Shown here in pieces: positions 19,725 to 46,920 of a DNA stretch of 64,000 nt (positions are counted from its first letter, which is position 1; each line of letters starts with the position of its first letter). The notes under the pieces were generated by a model. That model was not told the origin of the DNA. It searched no databases and was given only the letters and a program-made list of their open reading frames with translations. Source of the DNA: a virus; IMG/VR virus record IMGVR_UViG_3300027861_000010. One strand, 5' to 3'. Both the position numbers and the translations under genes were made by a program.

Positions 19725-22700
19725 GTGGCAGGGATGGCCCCTACAACACAATGCCCGCAAGGCCCACAGGATCCGGTGTTCGACATCGTCAAGTGCGATG
19801 TTCCGTGCATCTTCCCGATCCCAGATGGCAATTGGATTGAAGATCCGCAGGTTCCTCCGGCACCGGATGACATCGCGGATTGTCCTGCTATCCCTGTGCC
19901 TTTACCGGAACCGGATCCACTCTGTCCTGAGATCACGTTTGATGGGAATCCTCAAGGTGGGCAGGCTCAAATTAGTGTTGTGCCGATTGGACAAGAACGG
20001 GCTTTCTTCCGTATCACTAAAGGTGAATGTTGCGATTACGACTTCGATCTTGAGATCGACTTTCCTTGTCCTGAACTGATTTCACTGGACTCGAATAGCC
20101 AATCAAACTCGAATTCAAACTCGAATTCGAGTAGTTACGCAGAGTGCGGTACGCCGCCGTCCGCTACGTTAGACATTACGAAGTCAGGCGACTGTACCTA
20201 CACCTTCGATCTTGAAGTCATATTTCCGTGCCCTCAAGACGGACCACAAGGCCCACCAGGCCCACAAGGCCCACAAGGCCCACAAGGACCGGGCGGACCA
20301 CAGGGACCACAGGGACCGGGCGGACCCCAAGGACCACAGGGACCGGGAGGCCCACAAGGGCCACAGGGACCAGAAGGTCCCCAAGGACCACAGGGACCAG
20401 AAGGTCCTCAGGGACCACAGGCACCAAAGAACCCAGACGGTCCACAAGGTCCCCAAGGACCACAAGGCCCGCAAGGACCGGGCGGACCACAGGGACCACA
20501 GGGTCCAGAAGGTCCCCAAGGGCCACAGGGTCCAGAAGGTCCCCAAGGGCCACAGGGACCAGAAGGTCCTCAGGGACCACAGGGACCAGAAGGTCCCCAA
20601 GGACCACAGGGACCACAGGGACCACAGGGTCCAGAAGGTCCCCAAGGGCCACAAGGGCCACAGGGACCGGACGGACCACAAGGAGCCGACGGACCACAGG
20701 GACCGGACGGACCTCAAGGGCCACAGGGACCAGAAGGTCCTCAGGGACCACAAGGGCCACAGGGACCAGAAGGTCCTCAGGGACCACAAGGGCCACAGGG
20801 TACAGAAGGACCACAGGGACCACAGGGTACAGAAGGTCCACAGGGACCACAGGGACCACAGGGTACAGAAGGTCCACAGGGACCACAGGGTACAGAAGGT
20901 CCACAGGGACCACAGGGTACAGAAGGTCCACAGGGACCACAGGGAGCCGACGGACCCCAGGGACCACAGGGAGCCGACGGACCACAGGGACCACAGGGAG
21001 CCGACGGACCACAGGGACCGGACGGACCACAAGGAGCCGACGGACCACAGGGACCGGACGGACCTCAAGGAGCTGACGGACCACAGGGACCGGACGGACC
21101 TCAAGGAGCTGACGGACCTCAAGGCCCCGATGGACCTCAAGGGGCCGATGGACCTCAAGGGGCTGACGGACCTCAAGGCCCCGATGGACCTCAAGGGGCT
21201 AAAGGCCCACAAGGAGCTGACGGCCCACAGGGACCGGACGGACCTCAAGGAGCTGACGGCCCGCAAGGGTCTAAAGGTCCACAAGGAGCTTCCGGACCTC
21301 AGGGAGCTTCCGGACCTCAAGGGTCTAAAGGCCCTCAAGGAACAGCTGGGCCTCAGGGAACAGCCGGACCTCAGGGTGACGCGGGACCTATAGGTCCTCA
21401 AGGCCCGATAGGTCCAGACGGTAATGCCGGACCACAAGGTCCGACCGGGGCAGCTGGCCCGACTGGTGACCCGGGACCTCAAGTTCAAGGAACAGGTGGT
21501 GGGACTGGACCTACAGGAGCAACTGGTCCAACAGGAGCAACAGGCCCAGACGGAGCCCAAGGTCCGGTTGGAGCAACAGGCCCAACAGGAGCAACTGGTC
21601 CAGTCGGAGCAACAGGCCCAGACGGAGCCCAAGGTCCGGTTGGAGCAACAGGCCCAGACGGAGCCCAAGGAGCAGCTGGGGCTGCTGGTGCCCAAGGTGC
21701 TGCCGGGGCTGCTGGTGCTCAAGGTGCTGCCGGGGCTGCTGGTGCTCAAGGTGCTGCCGGGGCTGCTGGTGCCCAAGGTGCTGCCGGGGCTGCTGGTGCC
21801 CAAGGTGCTGCCGGGGCAGCAGGTGCCCAAGGTGCTGCCGGGGCAGCAGGTGCCCAAGGACCAGCCGGAGCAACAGGTTCGCAAGGAGCAGCTGGGGCTG
21901 CTGGTGCTCAAGGTGCTGCCGGGGCAGCAGGTGCCCAAGGACCAGCCGGAGCAACAGGTTCGCAAGGAGCAGCTGGGGCTGCTGGTGCTCAAGGACCAGT
22001 GGGAGCAACAGGTTTTCAAGGCTTCACTGGTCCAACTGGATTTATAGGGTCACAAGGACCGGTTGGTCCAACGGGAGCACAAGGTTCGTCAGGTGCTCAG
22101 GGGCCATTCGGACCAGTCGGTCTTGACGGCACACAAGGCCCGACAGGAGAATCCGGCCCTGTTGGAGCAATAGGGGGTCAAGGACCAACTGGTCCAGCCG
22201 GAGCAACTGGGGCTCAAGGGGCTGCCGGAGCAGCAGGATCTCAAGGCTCTGCTGGAGCCCAAGGCTCTGCTGGAGCAATAGGGGGTCAAGGACCAACTGG
22301 TCCAGCCGGAGCAACTGGGGCTCAAGGGGCTGCCGGAGCAGCAGGATCTCAAGGCTCTGCTGGAGCCCAAGGCTCTGCTGGAGCAACAGGATCACAAGGT
22401 CCGATCGGAGCAACTGGTCCAACAGGAGACGCTGGAGCCGCGGGTGCTCAAGGGCCGACCGGTGCTCAGGGTGCTGACGGTGCAACTGGTCCAACAGGAG
22501 ACGCTGGAGACGCAGGTGCTCAAGGGGCAACCGGACCAACTGGTGGAACAGGGCCAACAGGATCTCAAGGGCCAACAGGATCTCAAGGTCCGACCGGAGC
22601 AACTGGTCCAACAGGAGACGCTGGAGACGCAGGTGCTCAAGGGGCAACCGGACCAACTGGTGGAACAGGGCCAACTGGTTCGCAGGGATCAATAGGTCCG

Positions 22701-24785
22701 ACAGGTCCGACAGGTGGTGCCGGTGTCCAGGGGCCAGTTGGAGTTCAAGGACCTGACGGAGCACCCGGTGCTCAAGGAGCAACAGGTGCTCAAGGTGCTG
22801 ACGGTACAACGGGAGCACAAGGCCCAACTGGTTCGCAGGGATCAACAGGTCCGACAGGTCCGACAGGCACCCCAGGTACGAACGGTTTACCGGGTTCACA
22901 AGGCCCGACCGGTGCTCAAGGTCCGTCAGGTGAGCAAGGTTTAGCTGGTGGTTGGTCGAGCTATTGGGAATTCGATAGTGCTACTGGAACCCCACCGGCC
23001 TCGACTCAACTTCGACTTAACAATGCAACGTTGAGTTCAGTTACTCGCATCTATGCGTCTGATACAAACATAGACTCAGTTGATGTTTCAGGAATGTTGA
23101 ACGCGATCGGTGTCGGCGACATCCTTCGCGTCTTCAATCCCTACGATTCCACAGAATTTGCTCACTACGAAATTGATTCCATTACGGATCAGACTTCGTA
23201 CTTCGACTTCACTGTCACTCATATCGAATCCAACGGTACGTTTACCGACGCGAATCCGATTGTGATGACGGTTTCTATGTTGGGTAATGTTGGTAACCAA
23301 GGGCCAGCCGGAATTACAGGCCCGACCGGTCCTGTTGGGGCTCAAGGAGCAGCTGGCCCAACCGGAGGAACCGGCCCCGCTGGTGTACAAGGCCCAGCAG
23401 GTACTCAAGGGAGTACGGGTCCGAGTGGTGCACAAGGTACAGTAGGTGTTCAAGGAGATACAGGTCCGAGCGGGGCACAGGGATCGGCTGGTGCCCAAGG
23501 ACCGGACGGAGCAACCGGCCCAACTGGAGGAACTGGCCCCGCGGGAGCAACCGGCCCAACTGGAGGAACTGGCCCCGTTGGTGCTCAAGGACCGGACGGA
23601 GGCACAGGACCAGCCGGACCAGCGGGCTCACAAGGACCAACCGGCCCAACTGGAGGAACTGGTCCCGTAGGCGGTCAAGGACCAACAGGCTCACAAGGTC
23701 CGACTGGTCCAACTGGAGGAACTGGCCCCGTTGGTGCTCAAGGACCGGACGGAGGCACAGGACCGGACGGAGGCACAGGACCAGCCGGACCAGCGGGCTC
23801 ACAAGGACCAACCGGCCCAACCGGCCCAACTGGAGGAACTGGTCCCGTAGGCGGTCAAGGACCAACTGGCTCGCAAGGGTCATCTGGTCCGGCTGGCGGG
23901 CAAGGCCCTACTGGTACTCAAGGACCGGACGGAGGCACAGGACCAGCCGGTACGCCAGGTCCTGCTGGTATTCAAGGTCCTGCTGGTGTTCAAGGTCCGG
24001 TAGGTGCAACAGGTTCGCAGGGGCCGACAGGTCCTACTGGAGGCGGCGGTCCAGCCGGTCCTCCTGGTGCTCAAGGCCCAACAGGAACCCAAGGTGCGAC
24101 AGGTTCGCAAGGACCAACCGGCCCAACTGGAGGAACTGGCCCAACTGGAGGAACTGGCCCCGCGGGAGCAACCGGCCCAACTGGAGGAACTGGCCCAACT
24201 GGAGGAACTGGCCCCGCGGGAGCTCAAGGCCCAACAGGAGCCGCCGGAGACGCCGGAGCCCAGGGACCAACCGGAACCGCGGGAGACACCGGCTCACAGG
24301 GTCCAACCGGAACCGCGGGAGACACCGGCTCACAGGGTCCAACTGGAGCTGCCGGGGATCAGGGACCAGAAGGTCCTCAGGGACCTCCTGGACCTCCAGG
24401 AGGAGCGGGACCGCTAACGCTCAGCGACGAGTTCAATCCTTATTTGGACTTCAGTGAGCCAGCGACTGATACATCCATGTTCCTTCGTTCTGGTGCTCAA
24501 GGAGCGACCGGTGCTCAAGGTTCGGTTGGACGCCAAGGCGGCTCCGGTAAACAAGGTTCGACAGGTAAACAAGGTCCGTCCGGTACTAACGCTACCGCCG
24601 AACGTGGTGGTTTACTTGCAGCTTCGATGCTGGATTCAGTGGCAGAGCCTGGTACGATATACTACTCTCTAACTTCGATGAGACTTGTATTCATGGATCG
24701 CAAAGGCAAGATCTTCTCGCTCACAGGTGATGTTCCGGACGGGTACGTTAAGTTCAAGGAGGACTCAGCTGGACCGCAAATTTAA
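19725..24785 (+). CDS. Giant collagen-like protein (probable tail fibre/whisker), 1686 aa
   Basis: Gly-X-Y runs at ~20241-22945 and ~23290-24410, separated by a ~115-aa globular insert. Cys/Pro-rich N-terminus and short C-terminal domain. Confidence 0.85.
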
Positions 24786-43673: not shown

Positions 43674-43862
43674 ATGAGGACGATCAAAAACCCAAACCAA
43701 CGAGTCAAGTGCCCTAAATGCAACGCAGAGCTGGAGATCGAACGCGACGACATTCGGCTGGACGACACCGGGATGTACCCCGCGTTCCACGTTCTCTGCC
43801 CACATTGCAGTAAGGCAATTGACGTCTCGCAGGAAGCCAAAGTGTTAGGAGCATCCGCATGA
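43674..43862 (+). CDS. Zinc-ribbon protein
   Basis: KCPKC...LCPHC. Confidence 0.65.
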   Translation: MRTIKNPNQRVKCPKCNAELEIERDDIRLDDTGMYPAFHVLCPHCSKAIDVSQEAKVLGASA

Positions 43863-44116
43863 AGTACGTCAAAGGCTGGGTGGCCTGCATTGAGAACAAA
43901 GACAAGTCACGGTTTCCGAACGGTAGCTTGTACTTGTACTCAGAGCCGCACCCCACAGAGCAGCAGGCCCACGACTGGGTCTGGGCTCACGATTCAATTA
44001 CGAAGGGCGGCGTCACACTTCTGAGAATGGAGTGCAACGACGTTCCCGAGGGGCGACTTGTGCAGCCTCTCGATCGCAAAAAATACGAAGCCCTATCGAG
44101 AAAAGGAGGTAGTTGA
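43859..44116 (+). CDS. Hypothetical protein
   Basis: 85 aa, ATGA coupling. Confidence 0.55.
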   Translation: MKYVKGWVACIENKDKSRFPNGSLYLYSEPHPTEQQAHDWVWAHDSITKGGVTLLRMECNDVPEGRLVQPLDRKKYEALSRKGGS

Positions 44117-44502
44117 TGTTTCTTGATATCTGGGTTCACCACCATCGTCACGGCTTCGACACTTACGACATGTTCCGACCAGAAGATGAACCTGTCCATA
44201 CCGTTGAGGAAGTGATCGAAGCTAATGACATTGATTTCGAGACGGATCGTGAAGACGAGTATATCGAAGTACGCCTCACGTCAATCGAAGTCCCATCCAA
44301 CTTCACGCCCAGCGAGCTTGGTGACCTGCAGTTTGCTATGCGAGCTCAGCGTAACCGCCTCGACCGGGCCATTTTCAAGAAAGATGCGGCTAGTAGCAAG
44401 CACTTCGCTGCCAACAGCAAGAAGTTCAAACGCTACGAGAAGCTGCTTAACAAACTCAAGAAACAGGAGAAACTCTGTGTCAGTCCAAAAGAAAACGTTT
44501 GA
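44113..44502 (+). CDS. Hypothetical protein
   Basis: AAGGAGG RBS; acidic N-terminus and basic C-terminus. Confidence 0.6.
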   Translation: MMFLDIWVHHHRHGFDTYDMFRPEDEPVHTVEEVIEANDIDFETDREDEYIEVRLTSIEVPSNFTPSELGDLQFAMRAQRNRLDRAIFKKDAASSKHFAANSKKFKRYEKLLNKLKKQEKLCVSPKENV

Positions 44503-44887
44503 GGAAGTCGACAAGCTCGTCGGCGACCCTAAGACCAAGAAGCACAACGAAGCAATCGTCTTCATTGGTACCGGAGGCGATCTCAACGAGTGGGTCGACG
44601 GCATCACTGGAATGCTAACAGATGAGTCAATCATGACTCCTGGTGACGAGTGGTACCACATGACCACAACCGGTGGCCGACACGAGTTGGTGATGCCGTT
44701 ACCCGCAGAGGGTGTCGACCTTGGCAAGATGGCCGTCTGGAAGTTCAAGTTCGGTGACTGCTCATGGTGGAGCGACTACCGCGTTAATTACTATGGTCAG
44801 CATGGAGCTGAACGGCCTGTCGAGGCAAACGACCAGGACGAGATTGACGAGTACGAAGAAGAGTCTGGAGTGACGTATGAGTGCTGA
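44477..44887 (+). CDS. Hypothetical phage protein
   Basis: GTG 44477 after AGGAG; GGDLNEWVDGI...TTTGGRHEL...WWSDY. Confidence 0.6.
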   Translation: MSVQKKTFEEVDKLVGDPKTKKHNEAIVFIGTGGDLNEWVDGITGMLTDESIMTPGDEWYHMTTTGGRHELVMPLPAEGVDLGKMAVWKFKFGDCSWWSDYRVNYYGQHGAERPVEANDQDEIDEYEEESGVTYEC

Positions 44888-45287
44888 CTACGAACGCGTC
44901 GTACCTCGCGATCTCTTCCGCGAGAGCTTGTTGTTGAAGTGTCTCGGCAGGCTTTGTTTGTTGATTCACGACGGGAAACTTCCTTGGTTGAAGTTCTACC
45001 ATAATTCTGAGTTCAACACTGAACTAGAATTCAAAGGCTTTGAAATCTCTTGTCGAGATTCAGATGGCGGACTGGAGTGTTGTACTGTCAAGTTCTATCC
45101 AGCAAACACACCAGAAGACTCCGAAATGTGGCAATACGAGCTGGATATCTATACCGGCTTGGCCCGTCAAGGCGATCACTGGCCTCTCCACTTCACTGAC
45201 GAAGGTGAAGAGATCGAGGTCTTCGACAACGAAGGCAATATCACGTCTGAATTTCAGGAGGCAGTCACATGCGAAAGTTCCAAGTGA
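44877..45287 (+). CDS. Hypothetical phage protein
   Basis: YERVVPRDLFRESLLLKCLGRL; coupled. Confidence 0.6.
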   Translation: MSADYERVVPRDLFRESLLLKCLGRLCLLIHDGKLPWLKFYHNSEFNTELEFKGFEISCRDSDGGLECCTVKFYPANTPEDSEMWQYELDIYTGLARQGDHWPLHFTDEGEEIEVFDNEGNITSEFQEAVTCESSK

Positions 45288-45646
45288 CTCTGGCTGACAA
45301 CAACCCAGAGTTCAACACGAAGATTCCGATCGCCGTCTCGGTAGGTCAGAACTTCATTCAGTTCGAGGCCGAAGGCTTCAATGCCTGCGGTGCTGCGGAC
45401 GAGCAACCGATTGGTGACGGCAACCGATCAATTGTTGCGTTCGAGATCTGGGAAGGCCGACTGCGTTTGCTGGTCTGGGCTGACATCAACCAGGAAGATC
45501 CGACGCATACCATCGACCTCGAAGAGGCTCGAACTTCCAACCGCGATTGCTATTACTGTGGCGGTAACTGTCATCGAGACCCTGAACACGCTTGTGACGG
45601 GTACCTCGGTGACATCGACAATCTTTACAAAAAGGAAAAGAAATGA
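45269..45646 (+). CDS. Hypothetical protein with Cys-rich tail
   Basis: CYYCGGNC...HACDG; stop overlaps the RAMP gene start. Confidence 0.6.
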   Translation: MRKFQVTLADNNPEFNTKIPIAVSVGQNFIQFEAEGFNACGAADEQPIGDGNRSIVAFEIWEGRLRLLVWADINQEDPTHTIDLEEARTSNRDCYYCGGNCHRDPEHACDGYLGDIDNLYKKEKK

Positions 45647-46296
45647 AAAACATCAAAATCCAAGTAACTGGACTGACTCCACTACTGATGAACGCCTTCA
45701 AAGGCGACGACAACAACGGATCATCCAAGTCCTCGGCTGCTAAGGATTATGGCACTCCGTTGCAGCAAGCACAGGAGAAGCTGTACATCGGAACGGATGG
45801 CGAAACGCTCGTTATCCCGCAACCGAACATCTTCAGTTGCATCATTGAAGGCGGCAAGTTCTTTAAGAACGGGAAGTCAAAGGTCACGACCATGAAGACC
45901 TCGCTGATTCCCTCGTGCGTTTTCTTCCACGACATCGAGTACCCGCTGGAGTACAACGGCGTAGTAGGGGTGTGGACGACGGCGTTACCGGATCCAAGCT
46001 GCTGGTCGGTTGATAGCAGGCCGATTCGCAACCCTTCAACAGGCGGTCGAATTATGCGTCACCGCCCGATCATTCACGATTGGCGATTCACGTTCGCCGT
46101 TACTCTCGATACCGATGAAATGGCGGTTAGTTTGTTCCGTGACATTGTTGACGCTGCGGGCAGTAAGATCGGACTCGGCGACTTCCGTCCTGGCTGCAAA
46201 GGCTCATTCGGTCGTTGGAAAGTCACCAGTTGGGTCGTTACTGATGAAGAAGAAGAACAAGAAGTAGACGAGGAGGAAGAACTCCTCGAAGTCTGA
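45643..46296 (+). CDS. Stand-alone RAMP / Cas7-like RNA-binding protein
   Basis: RAMP hallmarks: beta1 IKIQVTGLTPLLM, LVIPQPNIFSCIIEGG helix motif, thumb RPIRNPSTGGRIMRHRP, WRFTFAV strand and Gly-rich loop IGLGDFRPGCKGSFGRWKV. Acidic tail. No other cas gene seen in the window. Confidence 0.75.
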   Translation: MKNIKIQVTGLTPLLMNAFKGDDNNGSSKSSAAKDYGTPLQQAQEKLYIGTDGETLVIPQPNIFSCIIEGGKFFKNGKSKVTTMKTSLIPSCVFFHDIEYPLEYNGVVGVWTTALPDPSCWSVDSRPIRNPSTGGRIMRHRPIIHDWRFTFAVTLDTDEMAVSLFRDIVDAAGSKIGLGDFRPGCKGSFGRWKVTSWVVTDEEEEQEVDEEEELLEV

Positions 46297-46307
46297 TTCC
46301 ATTTCAT

Positions 46308-46920
46308 GGAGCGGCTGCGTGTCGCAAGGCTGTGCCAGCTTAGGTCGGGCTTGGCGGGGTCAGGCAGGGTGCGGCAAGGCAAGGTTCCCGTCGTCATCAG
46401 AAATGGTGGCGACGGGCTTCCCGTGGTGGGGCGAGCTTAGGTATGGCAATGCCAGGCAGGGCGGTGCAAGGTACGGCAAGGCAAGGTTCCCGTCGTCATC
46501 AGAAATGGTGGCGGTGGGCTTCTCACGGTCAGGCACTGCTAGGTCGGGCGGGGCGGGGCGTGGCACGTCCGGGTGTGGTTAGGCAAGGCAAGGTTCCCGT
46601 CGTCATCAGAAATGGTGGCGGCGGGCTTTTACGCGGCGAGGCGAGGCGTGGCCGGGCGAGGCATGGCCGGGAGCGGCAATGCAGGGTGCGGCAAGGCAAG
46701 GTTCCCGTCGTCATCAGAAATGGTGGCGGCGGGCTTCTCAGGGCGAGGCGGGGCGACGCTCGGCATGGCTATGCCTGGCCGTGCTCGGCGTGGCTAGGAG
46801 CGGCAAGGCAAGGTTCCCGTCGTCATCAGAAATGGTGGCGGCGGGCTTTTACGCGGCGAGGCGAGGCCATGCAAGGCAGGGCGATGCAAGGTACGGCATG
46901 GAGTGGCGAGGTTTTTATTT
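46308..46920 (+). repeat. Guide-RNA-like array: five 30-nt hairpin repeats separated by GGY-NN pentamer tracts
   Basis: Hairpin CCCGTCGTCATC-AGAAAT-GGTGGCGRYGGG at 46387, 46489, 46596, 46704 and 46816, each preceded by GGCAAGGCAAGGTT. Periods are 102/107/108/112. Six tracts of 15, 12, 13, 13, 14 and 11 pentamers; ends in GGTTTTTATTT. Confidence 0.92.

What the first reader, a model, noticed from the sequence alone, without database searches (positions are those of the whole stretch)
45643..46920. Minimal phage RNA-guided system: lone RAMP/Cas7-like gene plus a hairpin/pentamer guide array
Seen: a 217-aa protein with RAMP motifs (TGLTPLLM; IPQPNI; G-loop IGLGDFRPGCKGSFG). Its stop is followed 11 nt later by a 610-nt non-coding array of five conserved hairpins and six variable GGY-NN tracts. 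No cas1/2/3/5/6/8/10 is visible in the 64 kb. Established: Cas7-family RAMPs polymerise along crRNA with a fixed nucleotide period. Inference: each subunit grips a constant GGY and presents the variable NN, giving multiple guides that silence or block DNA/RNA of competing phages or host defence genes without a nuclease. The architecture matches my recollection of recently reported VIPR-type (RAMP + GGY/NN repeat RNA) viral systems, which I cannot verify here. The 12-bp hairpin separators and the host lineage may define a distinct variant.
Basis: partly seen in the sequence, partly recalled or inferred. Interest (0 to 1): 0.97.

Follow-up and report, generated by a model that had tools for sequence, protein, structure and literature searches.

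The report
Marine phage VIPR guide-RNA system
A marine phage carries a small CRISPR-like protein gene followed by six five-base-repeat guide RNAs; this is a further, accessory-less example of the VIPR RNA-guided DNA-silencing systems first described in 2026 preprints, so it is real but not new in kind.

Summary
ORF 45643-46296 (217 aa) is followed 3 nt after its stop by six tracts of 12-15 YNNGG pentamers. Five identical-length 13-bp hairpins with a GAAA loop separate them.

The interpretation also holds. VIPR is a published system (bioRxiv 10.64898/2026.04.26.720920, .720927 and 2026.10.15.759431).
- The protein is a homologue of the solved SUSP1 Vipr (PDB 36pp: profile E 1.4e-12, hhalign 98%).
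- In 124 homologous loci, 86 carry same-strand YNNGG tracts next to the gene.

Differences from the type II reference:
- only 25% identity to SUSP1 Vipr;
- no vap gene;
- a plain GNRA hairpin tail instead of a pseudoknot;
- two constant CAAGG units before each tail;
- a tail-less last guide;
- a vipr+array cassette that sits at another position in a related phage.

No cas genes were found in 65 ORFs. There is no self-target, and no natural target above chance. Expression could not be tested.

This scan has already found VIPR loci on other DNA several times. Verdict: new member of a known kind, moderate-to-low interest.

The parts
45643..46296 (+). vipr gene: 217-aa Vipr-family RAMP. Its ATG overlaps the stop of the upstream ORF (ATGA). 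Clade-specific ~15-aa insertion near residues 104-118 and an acidic C-terminal tail (residues ~199-217).
46300..46384 (+). vrRNA 1 tract: 17 pentamer positions. The 5' eight are degenerate and the 3' nine are good YNNGG. It ends in the constant units CAAGG CAAGG.
   Evidence: The NN code is largely conserved in relative L081, and several changes are C<->T at position 1.
46387..46416 (+). Tail hairpin 1 (13 bp, GAAA loop).
46417..46486 (+). vrRNA 2: 5-nt linker, 11 variable units and 2 constant units.
46489..46518 (+). Tail hairpin 2.
   Evidence: + strand -17.3 kcal/mol, - strand -5.7 kcal/mol.
46519..46593 (+). vrRNA 3: linker, 12 variable units and 2 constant units.
46596..46625 (+). Tail hairpin 3.
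   Evidence: + strand -22.1 kcal/mol, - strand -8.1 kcal/mol.
46627..46701 (+). vrRNA 4: linker, 12 variable units and 2 constant units. It shares its first units with vrRNA 6.
46704..46733 (+). Tail hairpin 4.
46734..46813 (+). vrRNA 5: linker, 13 variable units and 2 constant units.
46816..46845 (+). Tail hairpin 5.
46847..46911 (+). vrRNA 6: linker and 12 units, with no hairpin tail. It runs straight into a T-run (46912-46919) ahead of the next gene's ribosome-binding site.
   Evidence: In relative L082 the last tract also lacks the tail and is followed by an intrinsic terminator.

Best explanation
This is a VIPR (Viral Interference Programmable Repeat) system carried by an uncultured marine tailed phage.

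Shown here:
- The 217-aa protein is a Vipr-family RAMP.
- The 612-nt region after it encodes six vrRNAs on the + strand.
- Each vrRNA is a 5-nt linker, 11-13 variable YNNGG units, and (in five of six) two constant CAAGG units plus a 13-bp GNRA hairpin as the 3' tail.

Inferred by homology to the SUSP1 system:
- The array is transcribed with or just after vipr and cut into ~100-110-nt vrRNAs.
- One Vipr protomer binds each pentamer. It holds G1 and G2 with N17, D180, R141 and F181, and holds the pyrimidine in a pocket made by R182 and the PQPN start of helix 1.
- The filament presents the NN dinucleotides, which pair with double-stranded DNA by the 'NNx' rule (one target base skipped per unit).
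- Binding represses transcription of the bound gene without cutting.

Inferred about targets: the likely targets are genes of competing phages or satellites in the same host. The NN composition fits sense-strand codon positions 1-2 best. The actual targets are unknown.

No accessory (vap) gene belongs to this cassette.
For: Protein
- phmmer to PDB 36pp_D 'SUSP1 Vipr protein' gives E 1.1e-5. A 30-sequence family profile gives E 1.4e-12 over the whole length.
- tblastn hits the SUSP1 gene and 124 other phage records. Pairwise BLASTP gives 25% identity, E 2e-13. hhalign gives 98.2%.
- SUSP1 GGY-contact residues H17, R138, D177, W178 and R179 (paper .720927) align with N17, R141, D180, F181 and R182. 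The last four are invariant in A1.

RNA
- The tracts sit in a perfect 5-nt register, 77% of units are YNNGG against 3.1% background, and entropy is high only at the NN positions.
- The tracts are unique in the window.
- Across 18 tails from 4 loci the hairpin is 98.9% paired, has 4 pairs with compensatory changes and an invariant U.G pair. It is stable only on the + strand.

Family linkage
- 86 of 124 homologous loci have same-strand tracts within 700 nt. 272 of 275 tracts are on the vipr strand.
- An 87%-identical Vipr (L082) has a homologous array with different guides.

Context and targets
- The window carries baseplate, tail fibre and terminase genes and no Cas genes.
- No self-target reaches 80% NN match, as the paper reports for other systems.
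- NN dinucleotides fit codon positions 1-2 by +6.1 bits, at least 5.5 bits better than the other five registers.
Against: - No natural target was found, so nothing here shows that the guides are used.
- The last tract has no tail.
- There is no vap gene, whereas the paper calls a vipr+vap pair typical.
- Identity to the only experimentally studied Vipr clade is 25%. Transfer of dsDNA binding, the 1-nt skip rule and silencing is therefore an inference.
- The tail is a plain hairpin, not the pseudoknot that caps SUSP1 vrRNAs.
- The codon-composition fit is modest. It could also reflect constraints of the RNA or the protein.
Confidence: 0.88

Rival explanations
1. It is the same system with the opposite unit polarity. 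The hairpin would be a 5' handle, so each guide is hairpin then tract. The first tract after vipr would be the handle-less one, and the last tract would be a complete guide.
For: There are five hairpins for six tracts, so one tract is incomplete under either model. The first tract has a degenerate 5' half. A conserved CTTYT follows every hairpin.
Against: Published vrRNAs carry the constant structured part at the 3' end. The two constant CAAGG units lie 5' of every hairpin. In L082 they also end the last tract, which has no hairpin but does have a terminator. This ties the constant part to the 3' end of a tract.
Confidence: 0.07
2. The array is a relic or a decoy. The guides would no longer direct silencing. 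They would persist by drift, or serve to soak up or redirect a competitor's Vipr, as satellite 'solo' vrRNAs do.
For: No target was found. The third VIPR paper shows decoy and solo vrRNAs in SUSP1 satellites and relatives.
Against: The cognate vipr gene is intact and adjacent, with all key residues. Tails are invariant over 45 columns within the array. Relatives keep the architecture with different guides. The locus recurs in seawater metagenomes of 19 studies from 2016 to 2025.
Confidence: 0.04
3. It is a Cas7-like filament that targets RNA rather than DNA, as its closest structural relatives Csm3 and Cmr4 do in type III CRISPR.
For: The best structural matches are type III and type VII Cas7 proteins that bind target RNA.
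Against: Homology by sequence is to Vipr, which was shown to bind dsDNA by a gapped code. The pentamer GGY/NN design matches that code, not the 6-nt periodicity of type III. No Cas10 or other type III partner is present.
Confidence: 0.03
4. It is not a guide array at all. It would be a G-rich structural DNA element (G-quadruplex-prone repeats, a recombination or packaging site) or a repetitive Arg/Gly-rich coding region.
For: GG runs spaced by 3 nt could form two-tetrad quadruplexes. ORFs of 74-235 aa can be read through the array.
Against: Unit lengths of 102, 107, 108 and 112 nt put the conserved block in different frames, so it is not coding. The strand-specific G.U hairpin points to RNA. 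The tracts are linked to vipr in 86 of 124 loci across phyla.
Confidence: 0.01

Closest known systems
VIPR systems in general (Vipr protein + vrRNA; bioRxiv 10.64898/2026.04.26.720920, seven types)
   Same: - A lone ~20-kDa RAMP with no cas genes, in a viral genome.
- Guides of 9-16 YNNGG units with hypervariable NN and a constant structured end.
- Arrays directly flanking vipr on the same strand.
- No self-targeting.
   Different: The type could not be assigned, because the paper's tables and figures are not held. No vap gene is present. The paper names six vap genes for types II-VII, so a vap-less type I is possible, but that is my inference.
Type II VIPR of Escherichia phage SUSP1 (YP_009199429.1; PDB 36pp; cryo-EM in 10.64898/2026.04.26.720927)
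   Same: - The protein is homologous over its full length.
- The G1, G2 and Y contact residues are conserved (R141, D180, F181, R182; N for H17).
- The array lies downstream in units of ~100 nt.
   Different: - Only 25% identity.
- SUSP1 has vap1 directly after vipr and one vrRNA upstream. Here there is no vap1 homologue (best tblastn E 0.057) and all guides are downstream.
- The SUSP1 tail is a ~40-nt hairpin plus pseudoknot. Here it is a 30-nt GNRA hairpin preceded by two constant CAAGG units.
- SUSP1 units are mostly TNNGG. Here they are mostly CNNGG.
- This protein has a ~15-aa insertion and an acidic C-terminal tail.
Cas7 family RAMPs of class 1 CRISPR (Csm3 of type III-A, e.g. 6xn5_H, 6ifn_F)
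   Different: 9-14% identity. There is no CRISPR repeat-spacer array and there are no partner Cas proteins. The periodicity is 5 nt with three bases sequestered, against 6 nt with one base flipped.
Hairpin-tailed VIPR array of IMG/VR contig IMGVR_UViG_3300028908_000005 (L045)
   Same: The 13-bp stem and 4-nt loop tail is alignable with this one and shows compensatory changes. It has a long downstream array. Both proteins belong to the same Vipr family (44% identity).
   Different: The tail sequence and loop differ, the array has about 15 guides, and the phage is different.

Membership tests
VIPR system | Protein homologous to an experimentally characterised Vipr | tested here: met
   36pp_D: E 1.1e-5 (single sequence) and 1.4e-12 (profile), full length. 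BLASTP E 2e-13 and hhalign 98.2% to SUSP1 YP_009199429.1.
VIPR system | Residues that grip GGY (SUSP1 H17, R138, D177, W178, R179) | tested here: met
   They align with N17, R141, D180, F181 and R182. R141, D180, F181 and R182 are invariant in 30 family members. Position 17 is N or H across the family.
VIPR system | vrRNAs of 9-16 tandem YNNGG units with conserved GGY and hypervariable NN | tested here: met
   Six tracts of 12-15 units, 65 of 84 perfect. Entropy is 1.85-1.87 bits at NN and 0.26-0.94 elsewhere.
VIPR system | Invariant structured 3' tail after the repeat tract | tested here: met
   Five of six tracts end in an invariant block with a 13-bp GNRA hairpin. Covariation is seen across 4 loci. 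The sixth tract has none. [quoted passage not shown]
VIPR system | Minimal locus without cas genes or a CRISPR array, mostly viral | tested here: met
   No Cas family in 65 ORFs. Phage structural and packaging genes are present.
VIPR system | vrRNAs expressed, processed and bound by Vipr | not testable with these tools
   No RNA run holding the locus was listed, so expression could not be examined here. It needs small-RNA sequencing and a pull-down.
VIPR system | DNA targets that match the NN code with one skipped base (>= 80% NN) | tested here: inconclusive
   No hit above chance in 0.9 Mb of held loci, in six IMG/VR pattern scans, or in 301 Planctomycetota genomes. The scans needed exact 9-10-unit blocks, so sensitivity was low.
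Type II VIPR (SUSP1 / P. fulva clade) | vap1 DNA-binding accessory gene next to vipr | tested here: not met
   The array starts 3 nt after the vipr stop. Neighbours have no family hits and are not conserved next to vipr in L082. There is no vap1 homologue in the window.
Type II VIPR (SUSP1 / P. fulva clade) | ~40-nt tail with hairpin plus pseudoknot | tested here: not met
   The tail is a 30-nt hairpin with a 4-nt GAAA loop, which leaves no loop bases for a pseudoknot. It has no sequence likeness to the SUSP1 tails printed.
CRISPR-Cas class 1 (type III/IV Cas7 effector) | CRISPR repeat-spacer array and partner Cas proteins (Cas5, Cas10/Cas8, Cas6, Cas1-2) | tested here: not met
   PADLOC and Pfam found none in 65 ORFs. 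The 'spacers' here are pentamer-periodic.

The most novel reading that the evidence does not exclude
The window's clade may be a distinct, accessory-free VIPR subtype of uncultured marine phages. No relative above 52% identity was found in IMG/VR or in 185,579 species genomes, apart from one 60% segment. No cultured phage is above 27%.

In this subtype a plain GNRA hairpin plus two constant CAAGG units, often preceded by a purine-first AGCGG unit, would cap each guide and set the end of the filament. The vipr+array pair would move as a self-contained cassette between positions in related phage genomes. If the constant AA-AA units also pair with DNA, every target would need an AAxAA end, which would be a PAM-like constraint absent from SUSP1.
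Probability: 0.3. Interest if true: 0.4.

Novelty: new member of a known kind. Interest (0 to 1): 0.3.

Why it matters
This adds a clean, compact example of VIPR: 654 nt of gene plus 612 nt of guides, with no accessory gene. It comes from an abundant but uncultured marine phage lineage, far in sequence from the only clades studied at the bench.

If it works on its own, it is a candidate minimal one-protein programmable DNA binder with a simple hairpin-capped guide.

It also shows that the hairpin-tail architecture is conserved by covariation across distant Vipr clades. The biology, meaning what the six guides silence in the sea, stays open.

Tried and rejected
- Pfam and Rfam gave nothing for the protein or the array. 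The sigma-70 promoter and terminator scan gave nothing useful in the array.
- No whole genome is held for the window, and it has no tRNA genes.
The closest relatives (P0003, P0005, P0006, 78-86% identity) could therefore not be fetched by that route. Only L081 and L082 came from the metagenome scan.
- The paper's supplementary tables are not held, so no VIPR type could be assigned.
- Target search, held sequence: ~0.65 Mb of held loci plus the window under skip rules 0-3, then 0.9 Mb under the 1-nt rule. Only chance-level hits came up, for example vr2 on L021 at 21/26 and L082_vr4 on the window at 16/20.
- Target search, IMG/VR: exact scans with 9-10-unit blocks of vr1, vr3, vr4, vr5 and vr6 gave 0 hits.
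- The vr2 block hit one locus on two related AT-rich T4-like contigs (L126, L127), with 20 of 22 variable NN matched. The skipped base falls on codon position 1, the GC content is about 35% against 52% for this phage, and the expected chance rate is about one hit per scan. I do not count it as a target.
- vr4 with up to 2 mismatches found nothing in the 301 Planctomycetota genomes searched.
- A scan for the tail sequence in IMG/VR found no copy.
- Sequencing runs: no RNA holder was listed.
- Laying contigs of four DNA runs showed that assemblies break inside the array, so nothing can be said on expression or RNA ends. One 143-nt contig (run X18) carries a different tract between conserved tails.

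Full report
WHAT IS THERE

ORF 45643-46296 on the + strand encodes 217 aa. Its ATG overlaps the TGA of the upstream ORF 45269-45646.

Three bases after its stop, a 612-nt non-coding stretch begins (46300-46911). It holds five copies of a ~47-nt block that is invariant over 45 columns. Start-to-start spacing is 102, 107, 108 and 112 nt. The copies are separated by G-rich tracts.

The block contains a 13-bp hairpin with a GAAA tetraloop. The stem carries three or four G.U pairs. As RNA it folds at -22.1 kcal/mol on the + strand and -8.1 kcal/mol on the - strand. This points to a + strand RNA.

When each tract is read back in fives from the GG next to its hairpin, all five fall into a perfect register of YNNGG units that reaches the end of the previous hairpin. 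The sixth tract, after the last hairpin, does the same up to a T-run.
- After a 5-nt linker (CTTCY or TTTTA) there are 12-15 units per tract.
- 65 of 84 units are perfect YNNGG, against 3.1% of pentamers elsewhere in the window.
- Entropy is 1.85 and 1.87 bits at the two N positions, and 0.94, 0.71 and 0.26 bits at Y, G and G.

A simple run scanner finds these six tracts and nothing else on either strand of the 64 kb. The same scanner recovers exactly the one upstream and three downstream vrRNAs of phage SUSP1.

WHAT THE PROTEIN IS

Pfam has no model for it. PHROGs places it in phrog_4652, of unknown function (E 6e-19).

Against PDB sequences the only real hit is 36pp chain D, 'SUSP1 Vipr protein'. 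The single sequence gives E 1.1e-5 over the G-loop half. A profile of 30 homologues gives E 1.4e-12 over the whole length. tblastn against cultured phages finds the SUSP1 gene and 124 other records, all at 27% identity or less. Against SUSP1 YP_009199429.1, direct BLASTP gives 25% identity and E 2e-13, and hhalign gives 98.2%.

The cryo-EM paper names the residues that hold the GGY bases: H17 and D177 for G1, R138 and W178 for G2, and R179 with the start of helix 1 (E71, M72) for the pyrimidine. In the alignments these correspond to N17, D180, R141, F181, R182 and the PQPN motif. R141, D180, F181, R182, P59 and N62 are invariant in the 30-member alignment.

The window's close clade differs from the rest of the family by a ~15-residue insertion near residues 104-118 and an acidic C-terminal tail.

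WHAT IS KNOWN

VIPR systems were described in bioRxiv 10.64898/2026.04.26.720920, with structures in 10.64898/2026.04.26.720927 and infection biology in 10.64898/2026.10.15.759431. In brief:
- A ~20-kDa Vipr RAMP polymerises, one protomer per unit, on vrRNAs of 9-16 YNNGG repeats capped by an invariant 3' tail.
- The NN dinucleotides pair with dsDNA while skipping one target base per unit.
- Binding represses transcription.
- Natural targets are competing phages, prophages and satellites.
- There are seven types with varied arrays and six vap accessory genes.

LINKAGE ACROSS THE FAMILY

The metagenomic protein database holds 756 relatives. I fetched 80 loci from IMG/VR, 43 from species genomes and 2 from metagenomes.

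Of 124 loci with the gene, 92 have YNNGG tracts. In 86 a same-strand tract lies within 700 nt of the gene. 272 of 275 tracts are on the gene's strand.

Separators differ by clade:
- 13-bp hairpins in L045;
- a T-run followed by a promoter-like box in L044;
- 7-8-nt separators in L016 and L033;
- 65-nt structured separators in L022.

The L045 hairpins align with the window's. Over 18 tails from four loci, 98.9% of cells pair, four pairs change on both sides, and one U.G pair is invariant.

CLOSE RELATIVES

L082 (Vipr 87% identical) has three of the same hairpin tails with other guides. Its fourth tract ends in the constant CAAGG CAAGG and then runs into an intrinsic terminator instead of the tail.

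L082 shares many neighbouring genes with the window, but there the cassette lies upstream of the homologues of window genes 43859-45646. In the window it lies downstream of them. Nucleotide homology between the two cassettes starts 11 nt before the ATG. The gene plus its array therefore behaves as one self-contained module, and no neighbour travels with it.

The neighbours have no family hits. No vap1 homologue exists in the window.

L081 (86% identical) keeps the first guide with most NN unchanged, and several of its substitutions are C<->T at the Y position. That is what a pyrimidine-only constraint predicts.

CONTEXT

The window is phage DNA. It carries a baseplate wedge/J protein, a 1686-aa collagen-like tail fibre, terminase gpA, GP88, an AAA ATPase and other phage genes. 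None of 65 ORFs hits a Cas model.

The locus is present in about 20 seawater and marine metagenome runs from 19 studies, 2016-2025. The host is unknown. The nearest genome-borne relatives (about 50% identity) are in Planctomycetota, Magnetococcales, Victivallales and other MAGs. One phage ORF has a weak planctomycete cytochrome domain hit.

TARGETS

No site in the window reaches 80% NN match. This agrees with the reported lack of self-targeting.

Searches found nothing above chance in held loci, in IMG/VR (six pattern scans that needed exact 9-10-unit blocks) or in 301 Planctomycetota genomes. The one vr2 hit, on AT-rich T4-like contigs, is at the expected chance rate and is out of codon register.

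Indirectly, the 74 variable NN fit the dinucleotide usage of codon positions 1-2 of this phage's genes. The fit is 6.1 bits better than background and at least 5.5 bits better than the five other registers. This is in line with the reported wobble-skipping, but it is only modest evidence.

MECHANISM AND RIVALS

Shown here: homology, fold, conserved contact residues, guide anatomy, tail structure, strand and family-wide linkage.

Inferred from SUSP1: transcription and processing into ~100-110-nt vrRNAs, filament assembly, dsDNA recognition by the NNx code, and silencing without a nuclease.

Rivals: reversed unit polarity (hairpin as 5' handle), a relic or decoy array, RNA targeting, or a non-RNA G-rich element. 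Each is weaker, for the reasons given under the rival entries.

VERDICT

This is a genuine VIPR locus and a new member of a known kind. It is not the type II of SUSP1, because it has no vap1, no pseudoknot tail and only 25% identity. Its type among the seven could not be assigned because the tables are not held.

Earlier notes of this scan already describe VIPR loci, including hairpin tails, on other DNA. That does not change the evidence here, but it confirms that the kind is no longer a surprise.

Noticed in passing
window 46690-46701, 46802-46813; L082 arrays: A purine-first unit AGCGG (AGTGG in the last tract) recurs as the third-last unit before CAAGG CAAGG. It is seen in vr4, vr5 and all four L082 guides. 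The SUSP1 structure says the Y pocket excludes purines, so this unit might mark the 3' end of the filament. Untested.
   Followed up: partly
window 46626-46647 and 46846-46867: vrRNA 4 and vrRNA 6 share the linker and their first three units (CTTTTACGCGGCGAGGCGAGGC). Repeat copies 3 and 5 are 86% alike over 97 nt. This suggests a recent duplication of one unit followed by divergence of the guide.
   Followed up: partly
window 46246-46293: The acidic C-terminal tail of the protein is encoded by a GAA-rich run (TRF period 3, 12 copies). It attracts many unrelated metagenomic contigs, which causes a false depth spike when reads are laid. The tail is shared only by the closest clade (78-86% identity).
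   Followed up: partly
L126:7948-7985 and L127:4087-4124: vrRNA 2 matches 20 of 22 variable NN positions by the 1-nt skip rule inside a 148-aa ORF of two related AT-rich T4-like IMG/VR contigs. The two contigs differ at a skipped base. The match is at about the chance rate for the scan, and the skipped base is codon position 1, so I do not claim it as a target.
   Followed up: partly
L044 (= L105) 354-2038: This is an array of 14 vrRNA tracts upstream of vipr. Each tract is followed by a T-run, GAGGGG and an ATAATATA-like box. Each guide may have its own terminator and promoter rather than being cut from one transcript.
   Followed up: no
L016 5560-6085, L023 3134-4299, L033 3142-3943: These are long arrays whose tracts are separated by only 7-8 constant bases (CATAGTAG or ATTTTAG), with no structured tail. 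They may be the 'staggered' arrays mentioned in the paper.
   Followed up: no
L082 7058-7700: Downstream of the L082 array, a small ORF is flanked by two near-identical intrinsic terminators (GGCCGTACATCC...GGTGTGCGGCC followed by a T-run). It looks like an inserted moron.
   Followed up: no
window 19725-24785: A 1686-aa collagen-like tail fibre gene has 62% GC against ~52% for the rest of the window. It has a long overlapping antisense ORF, which is an artefact of the Gly-X-Y repeats.
   Followed up: no
window, ORF not located (one of the 65 in alignment A4): Single-member Pfam hits to PSCyt1 (planctomycete cytochrome C domain, E 6.6e-5), Sigma70_r3, RNase_H, HTH_24, matrixin, a 2OG-Fe(II) oxygenase and a heptosyltransferase. 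The PSCyt1 hit, together with Planctomycetota MAGs among the nearest genome-borne Vipr relatives, is a weak host clue.
   Followed up: no
window 46582-46719, run X18 record 22: A 143-nt contig from a 2025 seawater run has the two conserved tails with a different tract between them (20 substitutions, 7 gaps). Guides therefore seem to differ between populations of this phage.
   Followed up: partly
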